Source: a virus
Direction: 5' to 3' (one strand)
IMG/VR virus record: IMGVR_UViG_3300024346_010589
Span: 18,064 to 82,063 of that record
DNA: 64,000 bases
Made by a program: the position numbers and the translations under genes. Numbering within the stretch: position 1 is the stretch's first letter; each line of letters begins with the position of its first letter. The notes under the pieces are model-generated. The model ran no database searches. It saw only the letters and a list, made by a program, of their open reading frames with translations, and was not told the origin of the DNA. Positions 5,479 to 14,452 of this stretch are shown piece by piece.

Positions 5479-5730
5479 TTACCCACTACTAATTTTCAAG
5501 AAATCAGAGCCATCTCTCCATACAGCCCCCCTTACCAAGGGGTCAACAGTAGGAATATTATCATAGTCAAGAATCAAATACCCCAAGCTGGCAGAAATCG
5601 AAGAAATACTTGAGCTAGAAATAGATGATGCGGAAACCTGACCTAGGTCAGACACATCACTGTCTAGGTTCTGGAAGATTCCGCTTTCGCCGCTAGTATT
5701 GCTTAATGTGTATAATGGAACTTTTGCCAT
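5479..5730 (-). CDS. Small putative virion-associated protein
   Basis: Ser-rich middle. C-terminal IPTVDPLVRGAVWRDGSDFLKISSG resembles the LPTxDPxxxGxxWxDxxxLKIS motif of phage fibre/decoration proteins. Preceded by GTGTA-N9-ATG. Confidence 0.55.
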   Translation of the reverse strand: MAKVPLYTLSNTSGESGIFQNLDSDVSDLGQVSASSISSSSISSISASLGYLILDYDNIPTVDPLVRGAVWRDGSDFLKISSG

Positions 5731-5744
5731 AATATATATTACAC
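5731..5744 (-). promoter_or_regulatory. GTGTA-N9-ATG motif (candidate phage late promoter); representative copy
   Basis: The same motif and 9-nt spacing occur at 8680, 13488 and 62192. Longer spacing occurs at 11571, 4914, 37059, 60777 and 60819. Confidence 0.6.
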
Positions 5745-5753
5745 GTAAGAATT

Positions 5754-5821
5754 AAGCGCCTTGAAGATGAATATCAGAATCTTGATCAAACAAGATGATA
5801 GGGTGAATCTCCAGGGCGCTT
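5754..5821 (-). ncRNA. Structured RNA hairpin, copy 1 (3' of nrdB)
   Basis: AAGCGCCCTGGAGAT pairs with ATCTTCAAGGCGCTT. An inner TATCA-TCTTG/CAAGA-TGATA helix is present. Related to the element at 11674-11729. Confidence 0.55.
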
Positions 5822-5829
5822 TTTAGAAT

Positions 5830-6843
5830 TTAAAAGTCGTCTTCTAGTGAGCCGCTTTGTTGATACTCGCGGACTCTTCTTTCGAAGAAATTACCCATCG
5901 CCTGCACATCAACAACCTCTCCTAGCCAAGGGAATGGGTTTTTATCGCTAGGGAACCTGTAGTCTAATCCTATAGCTTCTAAGCGTCTATTACCAATGTA
6001 ATGCATATAGTCCACGAACATGTCTGCATTCAACCCAAGTATTCCGGTGGGAAGAACATCTTTTGCATAAGCAATTTCAAGGTCAACTGCTTTTTTAATG
6101 TGTTCAATGAATTCCTCTTGAATTTCTTTAGTCCAAATAGAGGGGTTTTGATCAATTAAAGTATTGATGAGATAAGTTCCAAATGCAATGTGAGAGCTTT
6201 CGTCCCTCAATGTATATTTAATCTGATCAGAAACACCCTGTAATTTATTTTGACGACCAAGCGCAAGAAGCATAGCAAATCCACTAAAGAAAAAAGTACC
6301 TTCGCATATAATCCAGTAGGTCAAGAAGTTTCTTAATATAGCCTGCTTGCCCTCAATGCTAGTTGAGTTGAAGTCATTAGAACTAATATCGTCAGTAATC
6401 TGCATCAAGAAGTCATCCTTAGCTTTAATGCTTGGAACATTTTGATAGGCCGCATAGACCTCGTCAATTTCTAAATCAAGACTATCGCATATGTATACAA
6501 CAGTTAGGTTGTGAAGACTTTCTTCAAAAGCTTGACGCAATATATACTGGCGACACTCAGCGTCTGTAATATAACGAAAAGCGGACAAAAGCAAATTATT
6601 GCCAACCAAAGACTCACTTCCTGCAAAAAATCCAAGACATCGTTTGACAAGTAATTTTTCATCTTCTGTAATTTCATTGTTTTTCCATTGAGCTATATCG
6701 TTTTGCATAGATATTTCAGTGGGCATCCAGTTATTTGCACAGCTTTTAAGGAATAAGTCCCATGCATATTTATGTTTATGGGGCAATATTCTGTTTACCC
6801 CGGCGATATTGTCTGTTAAAAGTTCTCCTGTTTTATCTTTCAT
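5830..6843 (-). CDS. nrdB: Ribonucleotide reductase class I beta subunit, class Ic (R2c)-like
   Basis: NNWMPTEI, FFAGSESLVGNN, QAFEESLH, CEGTFFFSGF, LRDESSH and NFFERRVREYQ. Confidence 0.95.
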   Translation of the reverse strand: MKDKTGELLTDNIAGVNRILPHKHKYAWDLFLKSCANNWMPTEISMQNDIAQWKNNEITEDEKLLVKRCLGFFAGSESLVGNNLLLSAFRYITDAECRQYILRQAFEESLHNLTVVYICDSLDLEIDEVYAAYQNVPSIKAKDDFLMQITDDISSNDFNSTSIEGKQAILRNFLTYWIICEGTFFFSGFAMLLALGRQNKLQGVSDQIKYTLRDESSHIAFGTYLINTLIDQNPSIWTKEIQEEFIEHIKKAVDLEIAYAKDVLPTGILGLNADMFVDYMHYIGNRRLEAIGLDYRFPSDKNPFPWLGEVVDVQAMGNFFERRVREYQQSGSLEDDF

Positions 6844-6882
6844 GTATAGTATAACGAATGCGATTAATAATTAGATCACACA

Positions 6883-6911
6883 ACTATACAACAAAAAACA
6901 AGAAAGGTCAA
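6883..6911 (-). promoter_or_regulatory. sigma70-type promoter of nrdB
   Basis: TTGACC-17 nt-TATAGT about 40 nt upstream of the ATG. Confidence 0.6.
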
Positions 6912-6922
6912 GCAAAAAAAAA

Positions 6923-7246
6923 TCAAGAACGATTCTTAAATCTTTTAATTAACGACGTTAAATAAGAATAAACTATCGGCCAAAAACAAATAACCATAAC
7001 AATAGTTGACAGTATAGAGAAAACTGCAAAAGGAGTATCGTAGTCTATTGAATTGTTTTTATTAAAAAATTTAATTGATTCATTTTTATCTATAACTTGG
7101 TCTTTATTTATATCAGCTTTATTGAAATCATTAATACTTGGTATAACTTGTTGTATGCTTGTCGGGTTATTTGTGTTTTTACTTTTTTTAAATGTAGAAC
7201 AATTAAGCAAAAAAGGGATAATTAAAATTAATAGATATTTTTTCAT
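6923..7246 (-). CDS. Small lipoprotein-like protein with an EF-hand motif and a C-terminal TM helix
   Basis: MKKYLLILIIPFLLNC signal/lipobox-like segment, DINKDQVIDKNE EF-hand loop and hydrophobic FAVFSILSTIVMVICFWPIVY followed by a basic tail. Confidence 0.6.
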   Translation of the reverse strand: MKKYLLILIIPFLLNCSTFKKSKNTNNPTSIQQVIPSINDFNKADINKDQVIDKNESIKFFNKNNSIDYDTPFAVFSILSTIVMVICFWPIVYSYLTSLIKRFKNRS

Positions 7247-7564
7247 TTATAAATTGTCTGATATTTTTTTGAGTCTAGTTATTATGTAGTTTAGGTTTAG
7301 TGCATTTATTCTATCTACAACTATATCTCCTTTTTTGGGATGGATTAATGCGCCAGACTCCAGCTCCCCCTCGTGGAGAACATAGGAGATGAAATCATGA
7401 GCGCCGTTATTCTTCAACCAATTCCAGTACATAGATCTTGTACCCATCTTGCAGGAAAGCAGTACGTTTTCAAAATGAAACACTTTACTATACATAGTCA
7501 CGTCCCTGAAACAGGATATCTCGCTGGGTGGTTCGGATAGAGTTGAATCTATGATTAAATTCAT
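7247..7564 (-). CDS. Hypothetical protein
   Basis: 105-aa ORF tightly packed in the operon; no recognised motif. Confidence 0.6.
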   Translation of the reverse strand: MNLIIDSTLSEPPSEISCFRDVTMYSKVFHFENVLLSCKMGTRSMYWNWLKNNGAHDFISYVLHEGELESGALIHPKKGDIVVDRINALNLNYIITRLKKISDNL

Positions 7565-8670
7565 TAACTAGAGGATATGATCAATGCCAGAATCACAACT
7601 ATTGCGCAAATTATCAATGGTATGTTTTTGCTTTTCTTGGGTTCTGGTTCTACAGGCTCTGGTTCTGGTTCGACAGGCTCTGGTTCTGGTTCTATGGGCT
7701 CTGGTTCAACAGGCTCTGGTTCAACAGGCTCTGGTTCAACAGGCTCTGGCTCTGGTTCTATGGGCTCTGGTTCAACAGGCTCTGGTTCAACAGGCTCTGG
7801 TTCTGGTTCGGGGTCAATTGGTTTTGGGTTAACAAACCCATCCGAAAACTCTACATAGTAAGGGCCAATAGAGTTCATGATAGAGGACTTAAATAAGGAA
7901 TCCTCCATAAAAAAGTAGCCAGAGTTTCCAAAAAATAAACCCCAACTGTTTTGAAATTCCCAGTAAAGCTTGTCGTTTATATACTTCCAACCAATGAGGC
8001 ATACCGCATGGCCACCTGCAACCTCTGATGCTAGGTATTTTTCTGTATCAACAATGCCGTCATAGCCAATGGAAAAAAAGTAATCCCTGACTTTGAATGC
8101 ATACCAAAGTGGCCGGTCAATCACCATCCTTTTAATCTCTTCTGTTTCAGAGCAGGGTATAACGTGGTAGGAGCTAATCTTTTTGAGTCCAGCGTCTTCT
8201 TTTGCTCCTTCTTTGGGGTTACTGGATTCGCTATCTATATATGGCCAAAAGCTTTCAAAGCAGCAACCTTCGTTTATTAATGCGTTAGCAGCACCCCTGA
8301 TTGATGTTCCTGAGTAATCTTCACCGGCCCATGGGTCGTATTTTTTAGCGGTCTTGTATATCCACATAGGGCTTGGCTCTTCGTTCTTGAACGCACTAGC
8401 CGAACCAAGAACAACCCTTCCGCTGTGGCCCACGCATGAACCTATTGACCCTTGGTTAGCGACGCTTACGCATAGTGATCTTCTGGAGAATTCCTTACTG
8501 TTGACACTTTCGGATTTTAAATACTCAGAGACGTGAACCCAATCTCTTTTATCTGCAGGATGTTCAGAAACATTTAATTTTTTTTCTGAAAATTTATTCT
8601 TTTTAACGTATTTAGATACTGGATTGTCTAGTAATAAGGACGCTATCGATTGTATTAGTTTTTTTCTCAT
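7564..8670 (-). CDS. Papain-like (C1) cysteine protease with Pro/Glu linker and C-terminal membrane anchor
   Basis: NQGSIGSC (oxyanion Q, catalytic C), GGHAV (H) and QNSWG..GYF (N), then PEPVE repeats and KKSK plus a hydrophobic tail. Confidence 0.9.
   Translation of the reverse strand: MRKKLIQSIASLLLDNPVSKYVKKNKFSEKKLNVSEHPADKRDWVHVSEYLKSESVNSKEFSRRSLCVSVANQGSIGSCVGHSGRVVLGSASAFKNEEPSPMWIYKTAKKYDPWAGEDYSGTSIRGAANALINEGCCFESFWPYIDSESSNPKEGAKEDAGLKKISSYHVIPCSETEEIKRMVIDRPLWYAFKVRDYFFSIGYDGIVDTEKYLASEVAGGHAVCLIGWKYINDKLYWEFQNSWGLFFGNSGYFFMEDSLFKSSIMNSIGPYYVEFSDGFVNPKPIDPEPEPEPVEPEPVEPEPIEPEPEPVEPEPVEPEPVEPEPIEPEPEPVEPEPEPVEPEPKKSKNIPLIICAIVVILALIISSS
7638..7815. repeat. Coding tandem repeat (15-bp and 6-bp units) encoding PEPVE/PE
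   Basis: Repeated ggttcaacaggctct and ggttct units. Confidence 0.9.
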
Positions 8671-8696
8671 GTATATAAATACACATTAAAGTGCAA

Positions 8697-9119
8697 TTAT
8701 ATACCATCTAAGAGGTTAACTATGTTGGGATCTATCAAGTCTTGGAAGTTTACTAGCTCGTTGATTTTAAACCAACCAAACTCACTATGTTCTTGGCATA
8801 ACTGTGGAACCACTATTTTATTGGACCTATGTATATGAAAGTAAAAATCACAATATTCATCTCTTATTACATCGATAAACTCAATAAATTTAAAGTCTAC
8901 AAATATTTTTGACTCTTCCAGTAATTCTCTTCCAGCGCACTCAATTGGAGTTTCGCCTTCATCTATTGATCCACCGAACACAGACCAGTAACCTCCGTAA
9001 GGATATGACTTTCCGGTAACATAGCACTTTTCTGACCTCTTGGCTAATAGTACCGAATTTTCAAATAGTACAGCAACGCCAGAAGCTCTTCTATTGGCAG
9101 CTTTCACATTCTCCACCAT
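8697..9119 (-). CDS. NUDIX hydrolase
   Basis: Nudix box GGSIDEGETPIECAGRELLEESKI; overlaps the end of nrdA. Confidence 0.9.
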   Translation of the reverse strand: MVENVKAANRRASGVAVLFENSVLLAKRSEKCYVTGKSYPYGGYWSVFGGSIDEGETPIECAGRELLEESKIFVDFKFIEFIDVIRDEYCDFYFHIHRSNKIVVPQLCQEHSEFGWFKINELVNFQDLIDPNIVNLLDGI

Positions 9120-11559
9120 TCTTCATCGCTTCAATACTGCAGGCGGTTTGAGAGCTAGAAGAATTTGAATCTTCGGAGGTCGACTTCTCTACCTTACTGG
9201 CGGCCCTATTCCTTAAATAGTACGTTGTCTTTAGTCCTGATTTCCAGCACTCCATATAAATGTCATTTAAGTACTTCAAGGACGTTGAGTTGTTGTATAA
9301 ATTAAAGCTAATTGCTTGGTCGAGCCATTTTTGCCTAGCTGCGTTGCATTCTATTAACTTGAACATATCCCTGTCAAAGGCGGTTTTGTATTTTTCCTTT
9401 ATCCACTGTGGGATATCGCCATTAAGTAAAGAAAGATCTCCATCAACATCCTTGACTAGCTTTGCCACCTCGGGACTCCACAAGCCTTCGTCTTTCATGT
9501 CATCAATAAAATGCTGGTTAGTGATAAAGAAGTTGCCGCTTTTATTTTCATAAACAAAGAGTACGGAAAAGTTGGGCTCAATGCTTTGCTCTACTCCGTT
9601 AATATAACCTATGGTTGCAGTTGGCGCAATAGCCATAACATTAGAGTTTCTCATACCGAATTCAGAAACATGTCGCCTTGAGATCTCCCACTCGTCTTTC
9701 TTGGTTTCACCATTACCAGATGGCGTTTGGCCCTTGTAGGACATTAGGTTATTGTAGGAATCAATTGGGAAAATATTTTGACTCCATAGTGAGCCTTCAT
9801 AAGTTTCATAGGATCCTCTTTCCTTAGCCAGTATGGAGCTAGCGTATATGGATTGGCAAGAATAAAACTCAAACAATTCATCATTGAATTTAATAGATTC
9901 ATCGCTATCAATATTAATATTTAATTTATGAAGCACGTCGTGTATCGCCATCATGCCTAGACCTATAGGGCGATTTTTCAGATTTGAGTTAGCAGCTTCC
10001 TTTGTTGGATAAAAGTTGATATCAATAACATTATCAAGCATTCTTACAGCTGTATGTATTGTTGATTTCAGTTTATCGTAATTAACAAAATAACCAGACT
10101 TGCCGTGCGTGGACTTCTCCTCCACATGGTTGAGTAGATTTATTGATCCTAAGTTGCATACAGCAGTCTCTCCAATTTCAGTCTTCTCGCCGGATTTATA
10201 TTTAGAGGCTTTAGTGTGGAGTGTTATTTCTGTGCATAGATTACTACTATGGACAACTCCTTCATGCTGATTGGTGTATCTTATATTGCACGGATCCTTG
10301 AAGGTACACCAAGGATGTGATGTCTCAAATAATACCTTGAGCATTTTTTTCCACAACTCTTTTGCTGGGGTTTTTCTGAAGTTTTTAACATTTCCGTCTT
10401 CTGCTGATTGGCACATTGCGTTATACTTATTGTCAAAGTCTTCGCCGAAGGAATCATGTAGACTTACTTCACTATCAATGAGCTTTTCGTTTGGGTCAAA
10501 GAAATACCAATCTTCATTAGCTTCAACTTTCCTCATAAAGATATCTGGAATCCATGAAGCAGTATTCATATCGTGACACCTAAGTCTATCGTCACCAGTA
10601 TTTCTTCTTAAGTTTAAGAAGTCCTCAAAGTCTAAATGCCAAGGTTCTAGGTATGCGCAACCTGCACCTGGGCGCTTTCCGCCTTGGTTTACGGCAACCA
10701 GCAAGTCGTTGTAAATTTTCAACCATGGAATTAAACCTCCAGAAGTTCCATTTGTTCCCTTGATGTGGGAGCCTGAAGACCTAAATGGAGTTACATCAAA
10801 ACCTAAACCACCAGCAAACTTGGATTTTCTAGCTTCTTGCCAGGCCCCATCAAATATACCATCAATACTATCATCAAAAGTATTAAGGTAACAAGAGCTA
10901 AGCTGTGAGTGTGTTGTACCGCTGTTGAATAGTGTGGGAGTAGAGGCTGTGTATAAAAATTGACTGAACAGATTGTAGAACTCTATTGCTTTTTCGTTTT
11001 TATCTTCTTCGTTGATGGCTAGACCCATTGCAACTCTCATCCAGAAAGCTTGAGGAGTTTCCATTATTTTCTTTTCACTTCTTATGAAGTAACGATCAAA
11101 TAGTATCTGGATTCCTAAGTATTTAAACTTCTTGTCTCTGTCTATCTTTAGCGCCTCTGAGAGTTTAGCAAAATCAAATCCAAGTAATCTTTCGTCTAGC
11201 ATTTCCTGCTTTACTAATTTTTTAATGTTCTGTATGAAGCTTTTTCTATATTGTGACTGGAAAGCTTCTGAGTCAACCCCCTCTTTGAATACTTCTTTGT
11301 ATAAGCAGTTTAATAGTAAACCTGCAGCAGCGTAAGAATAGTTTGGCTCTTTTTCTATTTTTTCTCTAGCAGATAAAACCAAAGCTTTGTCTATTTCGAT
11401 AGTAGTTATTTTATCAAATAATTGCAACTGTGCATCTAGTACTATCTCGCTTGGAGAAACGTTGTCTATGTCACTGCACGCTCTTAATGCGCTGGCGTTT
11501 ATTTTATCTACTTCAAATTCTTCTAGGCGGCCGTTTCTTTTCTTAACTTTAATATTCAT
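9091..11559 (-). CDS. nrdA: Ribonucleotide reductase class I alpha subunit with N-terminal ATP cone
   Basis: VKKRNG ATP cone, TPTLFN, LSSCYL, SNLCTEI, CNLGS, APTA, KTTYYLR and C-terminal CESCQ. Confidence 0.97.
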   Translation of the reverse strand: MNIKVKKRNGRLEEFEVDKINASALRACSDIDNVSPSEIVLDAQLQLFDKITTIEIDKALVLSAREKIEKEPNYSYAAAGLLLNCLYKEVFKEGVDSEAFQSQYRKSFIQNIKKLVKQEMLDERLLGFDFAKLSEALKIDRDKKFKYLGIQILFDRYFIRSEKKIMETPQAFWMRVAMGLAINEEDKNEKAIEFYNLFSQFLYTASTPTLFNSGTTHSQLSSCYLNTFDDSIDGIFDGAWQEARKSKFAGGLGFDVTPFRSSGSHIKGTNGTSGGLIPWLKIYNDLLVAVNQGGKRPGAGCAYLEPWHLDFEDFLNLRRNTGDDRLRCHDMNTASWIPDIFMRKVEANEDWYFFDPNEKLIDSEVSLHDSFGEDFDNKYNAMCQSAEDGNVKNFRKTPAKELWKKMLKVLFETSHPWCTFKDPCNIRYTNQHEGVVHSSNLCTEITLHTKASKYKSGEKTEIGETAVCNLGSINLLNHVEEKSTHGKSGYFVNYDKLKSTIHTAVRMLDNVIDINFYPTKEAANSNLKNRPIGLGMMAIHDVLHKLNINIDSDESIKFNDELFEFYSCQSIYASSILAKERGSYETYEGSLWSQNIFPIDSYNNLMSYKGQTPSGNGETKKDEWEISRRHVSEFGMRNSNVMAIAPTATIGYINGVEQSIEPNFSVLFVYENKSGNFFITNQHFIDDMKDEGLWSPEVAKLVKDVDGDLSLLNGDIPQWIKEKYKTAFDRDMFKLIECNAARQKWLDQAISFNLYNNSTSLKYLNDIYMECWKSGLKTTYYLRNRAASKVEKSTSEDSNSSSSQTACSIEAMKNGGECESCQ

Positions 11560-11624
11560 GAAATTGTTTTTACACTAAGGGGTTGTGTTGTTTTATAAAA
11601 AATGTAAGTTTTGCTAAAGAAAAC

Positions 11625-11653
11625 ATACTAACATAAAAAAACGTGTAGATCAA
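11625..11653 (-). promoter_or_regulatory. sigma70-type promoter of nrdA
   Basis: TTGATC-17 nt-TAGTAT with an extended -10 TG. Confidence 0.5.
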
Positions 11654-11673
11654 GTAAAAACGAAAATAATTTA

Positions 11674-11729
11674 TTAACAATAAGAGAACCAAGGATGAAT
11701 GTGGGAATCCCTAGTGTGCTTATTGTTAA
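11674..11729 (-). ncRNA. Structured RNA hairpin, copy 2 (between the ugd-like gene and the nrdA promoter)
   Basis: Perfect 11-bp stem TTAACAATAAG/CTTATTGTTAA, a 3x3 internal loop, a 9-bp stem ACTAGGGAT/ATCCTTGGT with two G-U pairs, and loop TCCCACATTC. Confidence 0.55.
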
Positions 11730-11731
11730 AT

Positions 11732-12589
11732 TTATGAATCGCTATTGTCTACGGCAGAAGTTGAGTTTCCCCAGTCCAGGTCTTTTCTTACGTCTAGATT
11801 AACTGACCATGCTGATTTTAAAAGTTTCGCATCTAACCCATTTTTCTCAAAGGTGGATATTAATGCATTAATGTCTTTTGGAAAGCATGTGCCGCCAAAA
11901 CCTTTGTCTCCGTCGTGACCGGGAACTTGATAGTGGGACTCACCTATTCTTTTGTCGCTAATAACTCCATTAATAATAGAGTCCCAATCTAATCCAAGTT
12001 TATCAATCAGCAAGTGTATCTCATTGAAAAAACTAACCTTGGTAGCAAAGAAACAATTAGCGATATACTTTACAGATTCAGACTCAACGCTTTTCATTAT
12101 AAGGCATGGCACATCAGGGAAATTGTATTTGAATAAGCCAGCAGCTTCCTGTGCGACGTGCTGGTATTTAGTGTAGCCTATTATGTGCCTATCTGCATTA
12201 ATGAAATCTTCTTTTGCTAATTTAGCGGTAAGAAATTCTGGGGAATGGATTATATGTAATTCCGGATGCGCTTCCTGTAGGCTGTCGGTTGTCCCAATTG
12301 GAACAGTTGATTTTATTATGAAGGTGGCGTTAGATCCAATAGATTTAATTTCGCTAAAGCAGGATTCTATAATTGATAGATTGCAGTCATCTCCCATAAC
12401 ATCCCTCATTGGTGTTGGGACGCATATGAAAACAAAGTCCTGAAGTATTACATCTCTAAGCGAGTGAGTCGAGGAGTTTGGATTTTTATCATACACCTTT
12501 ACTTCTTCGGACGAAAATCCGTTGGCGACTGCAGAACCAACGAAGCCATTCCCTATAACTCCGATTTTAATTTGGTCTGTTCTTTTCAA
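11732..12589 (-). CDS. UDP-glucose/GDP-mannose 6-dehydrogenase family, lacking the C-terminal domain
   Basis: GVIGNGFVG, ICVPTP, IKSTVPIG, SPEFL, KYIAN and GFGGTCFPKD; only 285 aa. Confidence 0.88.
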   Translation of the reverse strand: MKRTDQIKIGVIGNGFVGSAVANGFSSEEVKVYDKNPNSSTHSLRDVILQDFVFICVPTPMRDVMGDDCNLSIIESCFSEIKSIGSNATFIIKSTVPIGTTDSLQEAHPELHIIHSPEFLTAKLAKEDFINADRHIIGYTKYQHVAQEAAGLFKYNFPDVPCLIMKSVESESVKYIANCFFATKVSFFNEIHLLIDKLGLDWDSIINGVISDKRIGESHYQVPGHDGDKGFGGTCFPKDINALISTFEKNGLDAKLLKSAWSVNLDVRKDLDWGNSTSAVDNSDS

Positions 12590-13478
12590 TCCAATCTTCT
12601 ATTTTACGAGATGGATTCCATCCGAGCATAGTTTTAGCCTTAGTGTTGTCTGCAAGAGTTTCTCTTGACTCTCCTGGTCTTGCCGGGATATGAACGTGCT
12701 CACCTCCAGTTAATTTAACCAAGTCTAAGACTGAATGATTTGTGCCAGTTCCGAGGTTGAAAAGCTCTCCCACGATTTTCTTGTCATGCGATTCTCCAGC
12801 CAGAAACATCGCCTCGACTATGTCTTTGACATGAGTGTAGTCTCTAGTTTGAAGGCCATCTCCGACAACAGTCATTGCTTCGCCCGATTCTTTTTGCCTA
12901 AAGAATAAGCCGACAACTGGCGCGTAATCTCCAGCTAAAGGCTGACGCTCGCCATAGACGTTAAAGAATCTAAATAGAACAGTTTGTAGCCCAAAAAGTT
13001 TTGTATACATTTTGCAAAGCTCTTCACAGTTAGACTTGCTTACAGAATATGGGTTTAAGCAATCATTCGGCATATCCTCTCTTAGGGGAATTGGGTTTTT
13101 GAGCCCATAGCAAGAAGATGTTCCTGCGAACATTACTTTTTTGCAATCATTTAATCTTGCGGCCTGAAGAACGTTGCAGGTTCCTAGTGAGTTGTTCTTG
13201 ACAGCATCAGCTGGATCCTGTACGCAAATTTGTATCCTGGACCTAGCAGCTAAATGAAAAACCAAGTCAACACCCTTGAAGAGTGGATTAAGTTTCTCAA
13301 AATCACAGATATCTACTTTGTGGTTTTCGCAATCATCTCTCCATGTGAAATTAGAATTTGCTGTGGAGGATTCATCATCAACCACGATAACATCGTGTCC
13401 GGCTTTAAGTAATCTTTCAACAAGATGGCCGCCAATAAATCCGGCACCACCTGTAACTAAACATTTTTTCTTTGACAT
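12567..13478 (-). CDS. NAD-dependent nucleotide-sugar epimerase/dehydratase (extended SDR)
   Basis: TGGAGFIG, HLAA, YSVSK (YxxxK), FNVYG and GDGLQTRDY. Confidence 0.9.
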   Translation of the reverse strand: MSKKKCLVTGGAGFIGGHLVERLLKAGHDVIVVDDESSTANSNFTWRDDCENHKVDICDFEKLNPLFKGVDLVFHLAARSRIQICVQDPADAVKNNSLGTCNVLQAARLNDCKKVMFAGTSSCYGLKNPIPLREDMPNDCLNPYSVSKSNCEELCKMYTKLFGLQTVLFRFFNVYGERQPLAGDYAPVVGLFFRQKESGEAMTVVGDGLQTRDYTHVKDIVEAMFLAGESHDKKIVGELFNLGTGTNHSVLDLVKLTGGEHVHIPARPGESRETLADNTKAKTMLGWNPSRKIEDWIEKNRPN

Positions 13479-13486
13479 AATTAATG

Positions 13487-14452
13487 TTACACTTGATCGC
13501 AGTCAATATTTAAATTTTCTAGATACCATTTGTATGTTTTAACTATCCCATCCTTTAATGTGACTTTTGGCGAAAATCCTTTTGATTTAATTCTTGTGTT
13601 GTCCATTTTTTTTCTAAAAGTTCCGTCCGGCTTAGAGCTGTCAAATACTATTTCTCCATCATAGCCGATTGCGTCTTTGATCAAATGCACTAATTCTAAT
13701 ATCGTAACCTCGTGTTCTGATCCACAATTTATATGGGAAACGCCATCGCTATATATGTCCTCTGCGTTTATGTTCTCCATGCAATGGATAACGCCATCAG
13801 CCAAATCTTCGACATATAAAAATTCACGTAGGGGCTTGCCAGATCCCCATACTTCTATTGATTTATCGCCTTTTTCTTTTGCGCAATGTATTTTGTTTAT
13901 TAAAGCAGGCAGGACATGCGAACTCTTTAGATCAAAATTATCCCTAGGGCCGTATAGATTGCACGGCATTACCGAGTAAAAGTTGCAACCATATTGATCG
14001 TAGAAGCTTTCGCACATTTTGAGCGCCGCTATTTTAGCTATAGCATAGGGCTCATTGGTATGTTCGAGTGGACCGGTTAACAAGTATTCTTCTTTAATTG
14101 GTATGTCTGCATGCTTTGGATATATGCATGAAGAACCTAAGTTGATTAACTTCCTGACTCCGAACTTTTGCGCAGCCTTTATTATTGTTGATGAAATTTG
14201 TAAATTATCATAAAGGAAGTCTGCTCTGTATGTATTGTTGGCCAGAATTCCGCCAACTTTAGCCGCGCAAAGAATTACTGTGTCAATTTTTTCATCCCTA
14301 AAGAAGTCCAAAACCTTATGTTTATTCATTAGGTTCATCTCTTGCCTGGTTCTTGTTACAATATTGGAATAGTTTGAGCGTTGAAGCTTGCCAAGTATAG
14401 AAGAACCGACCATTCCGCGATGGCCAGCTATGAATATTTTTTCTTGCTTCAC
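13487..14452 (-). CDS. fcl: GDP-L-fucose synthase
   Basis: AGHRGMVGS, AAKVGGILAN, LGSSCIYPK, NEPYAIAK, SHVLPAL and WGSGKPLREF. Confidence 0.95.
   Translation of the reverse strand: MKQEKIFIAGHRGMVGSSILGKLQRSNYSNIVTRTRQEMNLMNKHKVLDFFRDEKIDTVILCAAKVGGILANNTYRADFLYDNLQISSTIIKAAQKFGVRKLINLGSSCIYPKHADIPIKEEYLLTGPLEHTNEPYAIAKIAALKMCESFYDQYGCNFYSVMPCNLYGPRDNFDLKSSHVLPALINKIHCAKEKGDKSIEVWGSGKPLREFLYVEDLADGVIHCMENINAEDIYSDGVSHINCGSEHEVTILELVHLIKDAIGYDGEIVFDSSKPDGTFRKKMDNTRIKSKGFSPKVTLKDGIVKTYKWYLENLNIDCDQV

What the first reader, a model, noticed from the sequence alone, without database searches (positions are those of the whole stretch)
5754..11729. Two copies of a structured RNA motif with compensatory changes bracket the RNR locus
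Seen on the minus strand: copy 1 (5754-5821) is AAGCGCCCTGGAGAT-TC...ATTC-ATCTTCAAGGCGCTT. Copy 2 (11674-11729) is AAGCACACTAGGGAT-TC...ATTC-ATCCTTGGTTCTCTT. The 5' arms match at 13 of 17 positions. The upper helix shows A-U to G-C and G-C to A-U double changes around a conserved G-U. Copy 1 has an extra hairpin in the loop. Both start within 10 nt after a stop codon and lack a long U-tract. Inference: a conserved protein-binding, processing or stabilising RNA element.
Basis: seen in the sequence. Interest (0 to 1): 0.7.

Follow-up and report, generated by a model that had tools for sequence, protein, structure and literature searches.

The report
Paired stem-loop modules flanking phage RNR genes
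Two related copies of an ~80-base RNA hairpin sit directly behind stop codons on either side of the ribonucleotide-reductase genes of an uncultured marine phage; they are real and shaped by selection for RNA pairing, but are confined to one narrow phage clade and most likely mark transcript boundaries, which is a fairly ordinary role.

Summary
Both hairpins lie at the stated coordinates on the minus (coding) strand and fold far better than shuffles (z about -5.5 each). They are true paralogues. In four close relatives found through NrdB, copy 2 carries the same inner hairpin as copy 1, so the window's copy 2 has lost 28 nt. A covariance model built without the window's copy 2 still finds it (40.5 bits, E 2e-6). 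Outer-stem substitutions keep pairing, G-U pairs favour the sense strand, and five pairs show double changes. The family is tiny. Every related record has exactly two copies, always in these two intergenic sites. None occur in more distant phages with the same gene order, and the only GTDB genome hit is a phage-like contig binned in a MAG. Rfam has no match. Each copy separates an upstream stop codon from the next promoter. My best reading (0.45) is a non-canonical terminator or 3'-end protective hairpin that insulates the RNR unit, resembling the stem-loop part of T4-type PeSL cassettes. An RNase III site, a recombination cassette and a neutral duplicate remain open. No data on transcript ends could be obtained.

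The parts
5754..5821 (-). Copy 1 of the stem-loop module. Outer stem 5807-5821 with 5754-5768, inner hairpin 5779-5796 (ATCTTG-6 nt-CAAGAT). It starts 8 nt after the nrdB stop.
   Evidence: 99.3 bits
11674..11729 (-). Copy 2, short form. Core arms 11707-11721 with 11682-11696, plus an 11-bp A/U-rich lower stem. It lacks the 28-nt inner hairpin present in all relatives; the deletion lies between two GATTC direct repeats, near 11704.
   Evidence: longest inverted repeat in the window; 40.5 bits; 28 nt 'put in behind 11704'
5830..6843 (-). nrdB (RNR small subunit). Its stop codon precedes copy 1.
   Evidence: PF00268, 1.8e-76
9091..11559 (-). nrdA (ATP-cone class I RNR large subunit), the first gene of the bracketed block
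11732..12589 (-). UDP-glucose/GDP-mannose dehydrogenase-like gene. Its stop codon precedes copy 2.
11625..11653 (-). Sigma-70-type promoter of nrdA (TTGATC-17 nt-TAGTAT), 20 nt downstream of the extended stem of copy 2 (28 nt from the end of the core 3' arm). The -35/17/-10 layout is kept in distant relatives.
   Evidence: read (aligned upstream regions of 15 relatives)
5731..5744 (-). GTGTAATATATATT, directly before the ATG of the 83-aa gene. This is a GTGTA-type phage promoter motif 9 nt after copy 1.
   Evidence: earlier scan notes
5479..5730 (-). 83-aa gene downstream of copy 1. In L002 and L003 it is replaced by an 845-aa gene with a similar N-terminus. The junction abuts the 3' end of copy 1.

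Best explanation
The two hairpins are paralogous copies of one ~80-90-nt intergenic stem-loop module. The module has a 15-bp outer stem, an internal loop and a 6-10-bp inner hairpin.

Shown: it arose recently in one narrow clade of uncultured marine siphovirus-like phages and sits at two sites. One is directly behind the stop codon of the gene before nrdA. The other is directly behind the stop codon of nrdB. Selection has kept the pairing.

Inferred: it acts in the sense transcript as a transcript-boundary hairpin. It would be a leaky, non-canonical terminator or attenuator that also blocks 3' exonucleases. Read-through from the upstream unit would then be damped and the upstream message would end in a stable structure. 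The next unit would restart from its own promoter: a sigma-70-type promoter for nrdA, and a GTGTA-type promoter for the gene after nrdB. Together the two copies would insulate the RNR block from its neighbours.
For: Paralogy and structure:
- The seven full-length copies align without gaps over 79 columns.
- 91% of cells are paired, five pairs change on both sides, and the G-U at 16/63 is invariant. 0 of 500 shuffles reach the observed covariation score, and slid registers drop to 35-54% paired.
- The window and L004 copy 1 differ at 6 positions. All 6 lie in the outer stem, all are transitions, and all keep or repair pairing.
- The sense strand folds better than the antisense strand by 4.5-11 kcal/mol in 6 of 8 variants.

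Position:
- Both copies start 2-10 nt after a stop codon and precede a promoter. The nrdA promoter TTGnnA-17-TAnnAT is conserved in 15 relatives. GTGTA lies exactly 14 nt before the next ATG after copy 1.
- More distant phages have classic GC-hairpin plus T-run terminators directly after nrdB, so a transcript end is expected there.
- Other intergenic gaps of this phage also hold strong hairpins between a stop and a GTGTA motif.
- The window's 28-nt deletion in copy 2 keeps the outer stem and shortens the loop to 10 nt. This fits a role carried by the stem.
- The PeSL stem-loops of T4-type phages have the same layout (stop codon, stem-loop, AT-rich stretch, promoter) and were shown to terminate (PMC2839356).
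Against: - There is no U-run. Only 5 and 7 of the 12 nt after the stems are U, against a 28% background, and the consensus scan does not call them terminators.
- The same phage has at least one hairpin followed by U7 on the coding strand (genome ~12.7 kb), so canonical signals are available to it.
- A 38-nt nested loop is unusual for an intrinsic terminator.
- The apical part is better conserved between the paralogues than the outer stem (5 of 38 against 11 of 30 differences in L004, read). A plain terminator does not explain this.
- Copy 1 in L003 is weak (-9.5 kcal/mol).
- Contigs from four RNA libraries run through both copies, but they may be DNA carry-over and cannot show RNA ends.
- There is no direct evidence on RNA 3' ends.
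Confidence: 0.45

Rival explanations
1. RNase III-type processing site, as in the T7 early region. The interrupted duplex of about 20-25 bp would be cut in its internal loop. This would separate the cistrons and leave the upstream message ending in the inner hairpin, which would stabilise it.
For: - The outer stem (15 bp) plus the inner stem (6-10 bp), or 11+9 bp in the window's copy 2, reach about two helical turns, the size of an idealised RNase III substrate. [quoted passage not shown]
- There is no U-run.
- The inner hairpin and loop sequences are the best conserved parts.
Against: - The window's copy 2 has lost the inner hairpin and internal loop, yet keeps the outer stem.
- The host is unknown, so its RNase III rules are unknown.
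- No cleavage data exist.
- Only two sites are present, not one at each cistron boundary.
Confidence: 0.15
2. A DNA-level recombination or mobile regulatory cassette (PeSL-like or MITE-like). The repeats would spread and persist because they serve as short homologies for module exchange or excision. Any RNA role would be secondary.
For: - Two direct repeats bracket a 5.9-kb module.
- The element appeared at both sites in a clade whose relatives have the same gene order without it, so it was inserted or duplicated.
- Short direct repeats flank both copies: AATTCT for copy 1 and (A)TAAATT for copy 2 (read).
- A gene replacement (83-aa against 845-aa gene) has its junction exactly at the 3' end of copy 1, and both downstream contexts occur with the same copy 1 variant.
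- PeSLs behave this way (PMC2839356, PMC4122927).
Against: - There are only two copies per genome, and no third context in IMG/VR, JGI metagenomes or GTDB genomes.
- No hybrid 'excised' junction appears among 19 pattern hits, and no back-joint appears in the laid contigs.
- Other mosaic breakpoints in the region do not coincide with the copies.
- The longest identical run between the paralogues is only about 14 nt.
- The strand-specific G-U pairs and compensated changes indicate selection on RNA, not DNA.
Confidence: 0.12
3. A young duplicate with no function of its own. A hairpin-forming segment would have been copied once, for example by template switching, and simply has not yet decayed.
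For: - The distribution is narrow.
- Parts are dispensable: the window's copy 2 lost 28 nt, and the outer stem of copy 1 in L003 is degraded.
- The count of pairs with double changes is not above shuffles (86/500 and 221/500).
Against: - Substitutions between orthologues fall in the stem and preserve pairing by wobble or double change.
- The sense strand is consistently more stable.
- The internal loop of copy 2 is closed by new pairs in L003.
Confidence: 0.1
4. A binding site for a trans-acting factor. Examples are a put-like processive antitermination RNA that modifies RNA polymerase before long operons, or an operator for a translational or RNA-binding regulator that co-ordinates RNR expression.
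For: - As with HK022 putL/putR (own knowledge), there are two paralogous ~70-nt structured copies per genome.
- The repeated single-stranded GAUUC and AUUCAU motifs and the inner hairpin are more conserved than the stem.
- Copy 1 precedes about 24 kb of tightly packed co-oriented genes.
Against: - Both copies lie upstream of the promoters that serve the next genes, not downstream of them.
- The architecture is one nested stem, not two adjacent stem-loops.
- The window's copy 2 lacks the conserved apical part.
- No candidate partner protein was identified.
Confidence: 0.08

Closest known systems
PeSL (promoter-early stem-loop) cassettes of T4-type phages (PMC2839356, PMC4122927)
   Same: Both are repeated intergenic motifs within one phage genome. 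Both have a stable stem-loop right after the upstream stop codon, followed by an AT-rich stretch and a promoter for the next gene. Copies flank a gene module, and an indel junction lies at the element. The PeSL stem-loop was shown to terminate transcription.
   Different: Here only the stem-loop is repeated, and the two downstream promoters are unrelated to each other. There are two copies rather than dozens. They flank core RNR genes rather than ORFans in hyperplastic regions. The phage is a siphovirus-like marine phage. The stem has a nested inner hairpin and no polyG/polyC tract. No mini-circles or chimeric copies were seen.
RNase III processing signals of the phage T7 early mRNA (PMC3867540)
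   Same: Both are intergenic, similar to each other within one genome, and form irregular hairpins of about two helical turns with an internal loop and no U-run. The product would end in a protective hairpin.
   Different: Cleavage is untested. There are only two sites. One copy has lost the internal loop and upper stem. The host and its RNase III are unknown.
Canonical intrinsic (Rho-independent) terminators
   Same: The stem base is GC-rich (copy 1), the element lies just after a stop codon, and the following sequence is A/U-rich. Relatives have classic terminators at the same place after nrdB.
   Different: There is no run of U. The loop is 38 nt in the full form. The apical sequence is conserved.
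REP/BIME extragenic palindromes of enterobacteria (own knowledge)
   Same: Both are imperfect palindromes just after stop codons within operons that can stabilise upstream mRNA.
   Different: REPs are about 35-40 nt, occur in hundreds of copies in bacterial chromosomes, and are linked to RAYT transposases. None of these holds here.
HK022 putL/putR antitermination RNAs (own knowledge)
   Same: Both have two paralogous structured RNA copies of about 70 nt in one phage genome.
   Different: put RNAs lie just downstream of the early promoters and consist of two adjacent stem-loops. These elements lie upstream of the local promoters and form one nested stem.

Membership tests
Any Rfam family | Score at or above the family gathering threshold, or at least a match overlapping the element at E <= 10 | tested here: not met
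   No gathering-level hits in the 64-kb window. In a permissive scan of L004 850-7250, which holds both full-length copies, no hit overlaps 934-1012 or 7018-7096.
Intrinsic terminator | GC-rich stem with a short loop (3-8 nt) | tested here: not met
   The stems are stable (-26.1 and -19.7 kcal/mol). The loop is 38 nt (nested hairpin) in the full form and 10 nt in the window's copy 2.
Intrinsic terminator | Run of U directly after the stem | tested here: not met
   The tails are UUAAUUCUUACG and AAUAAAUUAUUUUCG. Neither is listed by the consensus scan. U counts are 5/12 and 7/12.
Intrinsic terminator | Produces RNA 3' ends or reduces read-through | not testable with these tools
   Only assembled contigs of RNA libraries were available.
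PeSL cassette | Stem-loop directly after the upstream stop codon, followed by a promoter for the next gene | tested here: met
   Copy 2 is followed by an AT-rich 20 nt and then TTGATC-17-TAGTAT. Copy 1 is followed after 9 nt by GTGTA, which lies 14 nt before the ATG.
PeSL cassette | The conserved repeat includes the sigma-70 early promoter | tested here: not met
   Similarity between the copies ends about 6-10 nt after the stem. The downstream promoters differ.
PeSL cassette | Many copies, concentrated in hyperplastic regions around ORFans | tested here: not met
   There are exactly two copies in each of five records of 46-82 kb. They flank conserved RNR genes.
PeSL cassette | Recombination between copies (chimeric copies, circles, indels bounded by copies) | tested here: inconclusive
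   One gene replacement abuts the 3' end of copy 1. No chimeric copy or back-joint was found.
RNase III processing site | About two helical turns of (interrupted) double-stranded RNA | tested here: met
   15+6-10 bp in the full form and 11+9 bp in the window's copy 2. The substrate size is taken from PMC3867540.
RNase III processing site | Cleavage by RNase III | not testable with these tools
   This needs an enzyme assay or end mapping.
MITE/REP-like mobile repeat | Multiple dispersed copies; terminal inverted repeats with target-site duplications | tested here: not met
   Only two contexts were found in IMG/VR, JGI metagenomes and GTDB genomes. Flanking 6-7-nt direct repeats exist, but they are AT-rich, differ in length and register, and partly belong to an ancestral motif.

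The most novel reading that the evidence does not exclude
The module is a cis-acting regulatory RNA that is recognised by a factor. It could be a put-like element that makes RNA polymerase termination-resistant before the RNR block and the long glycan operon. It could instead be a mobile regulatory cassette of the PeSL type operating outside the T4-like myoviruses. In either case the conserved GAUUC/inner-hairpin apex would be the recognition surface.
Probability: 0.1. Interest if true: 0.6.

Novelty: new member of a known kind. Interest (0 to 1): 0.3.

Why it matters
If the reading is right, this is a small, clean case of a phage gaining a transcript-boundary hairpin and copying it to both ends of a gene block. 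Natural 'mutants' are available: a copy without the inner hairpin, a copy with a decayed outer stem, and relatives with neither copy. It would extend the idea of repeated stem-loop regulatory cassettes (PeSLs) from T4-type myoviruses to marine siphovirus-like phages. It would also give a non-canonical, U-less hairpin to test in an uncultured phage group that uses GTGTA promoters abutting start codons. It does not define a widespread new RNA class, so its value is local.

Tried and rejected
- **Close cultured relatives:** megablast of the locus against 50,697 phage records found nothing. NrdB and the tail protein reach under 60% identity to any isolate, so no annotated relative helps.
- **RNR block as a recently inserted cassette, with the repeats as scars:** rejected. 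The gene order epimerase, dehydrogenase, nrdA, NUDIX, nrdB, DnaJ-like is kept in many relatives that lack the element.
- **Chance similarity:** rejected by the model hit and by the full-length copy 2 in relatives.
- **Known ribozyme or riboswitch:** no Rfam match.
- **GANTC (CcrM) methylation sites in the GATTC repeats:** GANTC is not depleted or special in the genome (324 observed against 273 expected).
- **NrdR boxes:** none recognised by eye in either copy or in the nrdA leader.
- **DGR template/variable repeat:** the differences are not adenine-specific, and both copies are non-coding.
- **IS200/IS605-like end hairpins:** the cargo is ancestral at this place, and no transposase was seen among the genes scanned.
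- **Stop-codon read-through:** the frame after the nrdB stop stays open for about 22-25 codons through copy 1. Copy 2 has an in-frame stop at once. Treated as chance.
- **RNA evidence:** the four RNA-library runs were available only as assembled contigs of a ~93-95% relative. These contigs bridge both copies, but may be DNA carry-over and cannot show ends or levels.
- **Phage sigma factor near 20.5 kb:** no Pfam support.
- **Short form of copy 2:** not found in any other IMG/VR record. It is unique to this record so far, and an assembly error cannot be fully excluded.
- **Host hint:** one 7.7-kb contig of this clade is binned in a Flavobacteriaceae MAG. This is weak, and it sits oddly with the conserved TTGnnA-17-TAnnAT promoter.
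Full report
**Context.** The window is part of an 82-kb IMG/VR virus record with 37% G+C and tightly packed, often overlapping genes. It encodes a 4033-aa tape-measure-like protein and a lambda-J-like tail protein, so it is a siphovirus-like phage. It has no close cultured relative.

The finding lies in a run of minus-strand genes:
- epimerase
- UDP-glucose-dehydrogenase-like gene (11732-12589)
- nrdA (9091-11559)
- NUDIX
- papain-like protease
- two small ORFs
- nrdB (5830-6843)
- an 83-aa gene (5479-5730)
- a DnaJ-like gene

**The observation.** Read on the minus strand, both hairpins are exactly as described.
- Copy 1 (5754-5821) has 15-nt arms with one C.A mismatch and a nested hairpin.
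- Copy 2 (11674-11729) is the longest inverted repeat in the window. It consists of the homologous 15-nt arms with a 3x3 internal loop, plus an A/U-rich extension.
- Both fold much better than dinucleotide shuffles: -26.1 and -19.7 kcal/mol, z -5.5 each.
- The stems begin 8 and 2 nt after TAA stops. No T-run follows, and the terminator scan does not list them.

**Homology.** NrdB-based retrieval gave 80 related loci. The four closest (L002-L005) carry both elements at the same two places. In all four, copy 2 contains the same inner hairpin as copy 1 (TATCATCTTGTTTGWTCAAGATTCT).

The window's copy 2 is therefore a 28-nt deletion derivative. The deleted segment lies between two GATTC direct repeats. 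The same 28 nt appear as an insertion relative to the window in contigs of four RNA-library runs.

Seven full-length copies align without gaps over 79 columns. A covariance model built from them finds the window's copy 2, which was not in the model, at 40.5 bits and E 2e-6. That is the only further hit in 724 kb.

**Structure.** On the seven-sequence alignment, 91% of cells pair and five outer-stem pairs show changes on both sides. The G-U at columns 16/63 is invariant. Slid registers fall to 35-54% paired. No shuffle reaches the covariation score, although the count of double-change pairs is not above shuffles, as expected for so few, related sequences.

More telling, the window and L004 copy 1 differ at six positions. 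All six are in the outer stem, all are transitions, and all keep or repair pairing. Intermediates (A.C in L003, C.A in the window) are visible. Six of eight variants fold 4.5-11 kcal/mol better in the sense than in the antisense orientation. Selection therefore acts on an RNA helix in the mRNA-sense strand.

**Distribution.**
- Each of five records (46-82 kb) has exactly two copies, 5.9-6.3 kb apart.
- A 20-base core pattern found only this clade in IMG/VR and in JGI metagenomes, plus one chance hit, always in the same two contexts.
- In GTDB genomes it found one 7.7-kb phage-like contig binned in a Flavobacteriaceae MAG, plus two chance hits.
- Phages with the same gene order but 57-96% protein identity (L006, L007, L009, L055 and others) lack the element, both at the two sites and anywhere in five whole records.

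So the RNR block is old at this place, and the element is a recent gain that was duplicated. Rfam has nothing similar.

**Surroundings.** Upstream of nrdA, all relatives keep a motif ATTGTTAATAAC, a sigma-70-type promoter (TTGnnA-17 nt-TAnnAT) and GTGTAAA 12-16 nt before the ATG. In the window clade, copy 2 sits between the preceding stop codon and this promoter. Its lower stem uses the ancestral ATTGTTAA.

After nrdB, relatives without the element go straight to GTGTAATATATA-ATG. More distant phages have textbook GC-hairpin plus T-run terminators there. In the window, copy 1 is followed 9 nt later by GTGTA.

GTGTA is strongly depleted in the genome (31 and 29 occurrences against about 81 and 89 expected). 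Five minus-strand sites lie exactly 14 nt before a start codon, and a sixth (before nrdA) lies 16 nt before it. This agrees with earlier notes of this scan that GTGTA is a phage promoter abutting start codons.

Both copies thus occupy the slot 'stop codon, hairpin, promoter'. This is the layout of the PeSL terminator/promoter cassettes of T4-type phages, whose stem-loops were shown to terminate (PMC2839356).

**Mechanism.** The best-supported reading is a transcript-boundary hairpin in the mRNA: a leaky, non-canonical terminator and 3' exonuclease barrier that insulates the RNR unit.

Shown: paralogy, RNA-level pairing constraint, and position between stop codons and promoters.

Inferred: the effect on transcription or RNA decay.

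Against a plain terminator:
- There is no U-run.
- The nested loop is long.
- The apex is better conserved than the stem.
- The phage has a hairpin-plus-U7 signal elsewhere.

These points keep an RNase III-type processing site open. The duplex has the right size (about two helical turns), and the element resembles the five mutually similar T7 signals (PMC3867540).

A DNA-level role as a recombination cassette is suggested by the flanking short direct repeats and by a gene replacement whose junction abuts copy 1. However, no chimeric copy, circle joint or third context was found, and other mosaic breakpoints do not coincide with the copies.

**RNA data.** The only RNA libraries holding the locus were available as assembled contigs of a ~93-95% relative. 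They span both copies and cannot show ends.

**Verdict.** This is a real, selected, paralogous RNA stem-loop module. It is new as a sequence family, restricted to one clade, and most likely does an ordinary job. Interest is low to moderate.

Noticed in passing
window 5740-5744, 8680-8684, 11571-11575, 13488-13492, 62192-62196 (minus strand); genome-wide: GTGTA is about 3-fold depleted on both strands (31 and 29 occurrences against about 81 and 89 expected). Five minus-strand sites lie exactly 14 nt before an ATG, and one lies 16 nt before nrdA. The consensus is GTGTAWWTATAT-ATG. This looks like a phage promoter giving leaderless or near-leaderless mRNAs, as earlier notes of this scan propose for other marine phages.
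   Followed up: partly
window 8671-8704 and 62182-62228 (minus strand): Two further intergenic hairpins (-13.9 and -24.6 kcal/mol) have the GTGTATTTATATA promoter motif itself as their 3' arm, ending right at the next ATG. A hairpin and the restart promoter are overlaid.
   Followed up: partly
window 11670-11680 (minus strand) and the homologous sites in L006, L009, L046, L055, L056: A conserved ATTGTTAATAAC motif (palindrome GTTA-N-TAAC) lies about 15-20 nt upstream of the -35 of the nrdA promoter across the wider phage family. It is a possible operator or UP-like element.
   Followed up: no
window 5479-5730 compared with L002 7134-9671: In L002 and L003 the 83-aa gene after copy 1 is replaced by an 845-aa gene with no Pfam match that shares its N-terminus (YxLSxxSGExG). 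The short gene may be a remnant or a short allele of a variable, possibly structural, protein.
   Followed up: partly
L103 (contig CAJQLD010000031.1, 7.7 kb): A contig identical to this phage clade across copy 2 is binned in an uncultured Flavobacteriaceae MAG. This is a weak host hint. It fits the 37% G+C, but not obviously the sigma-70-type -35/-10 promoters.
   Followed up: no
window 48627-60728: There is a 4033-aa protein with a phage minor-tail (tape-measure type) domain at its N-terminus. This implies an unusually long tail if length scales as usual.
   Followed up: no
window 7566-7800: The repeat region of the papain-like protease gene varies by 3-9-nt indels, and a 124-nt replacement occurs at 7566-7571 among relatives in the RNA-library contigs.
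   Followed up: no
genome (G000:C1) about 12,700-12,760, minus strand, outside the window: A 10-bp hairpin with three G-U pairs, followed by U7, lies between two co-oriented genes. It is the one canonical-looking intrinsic terminator seen in this record.
   Followed up: no
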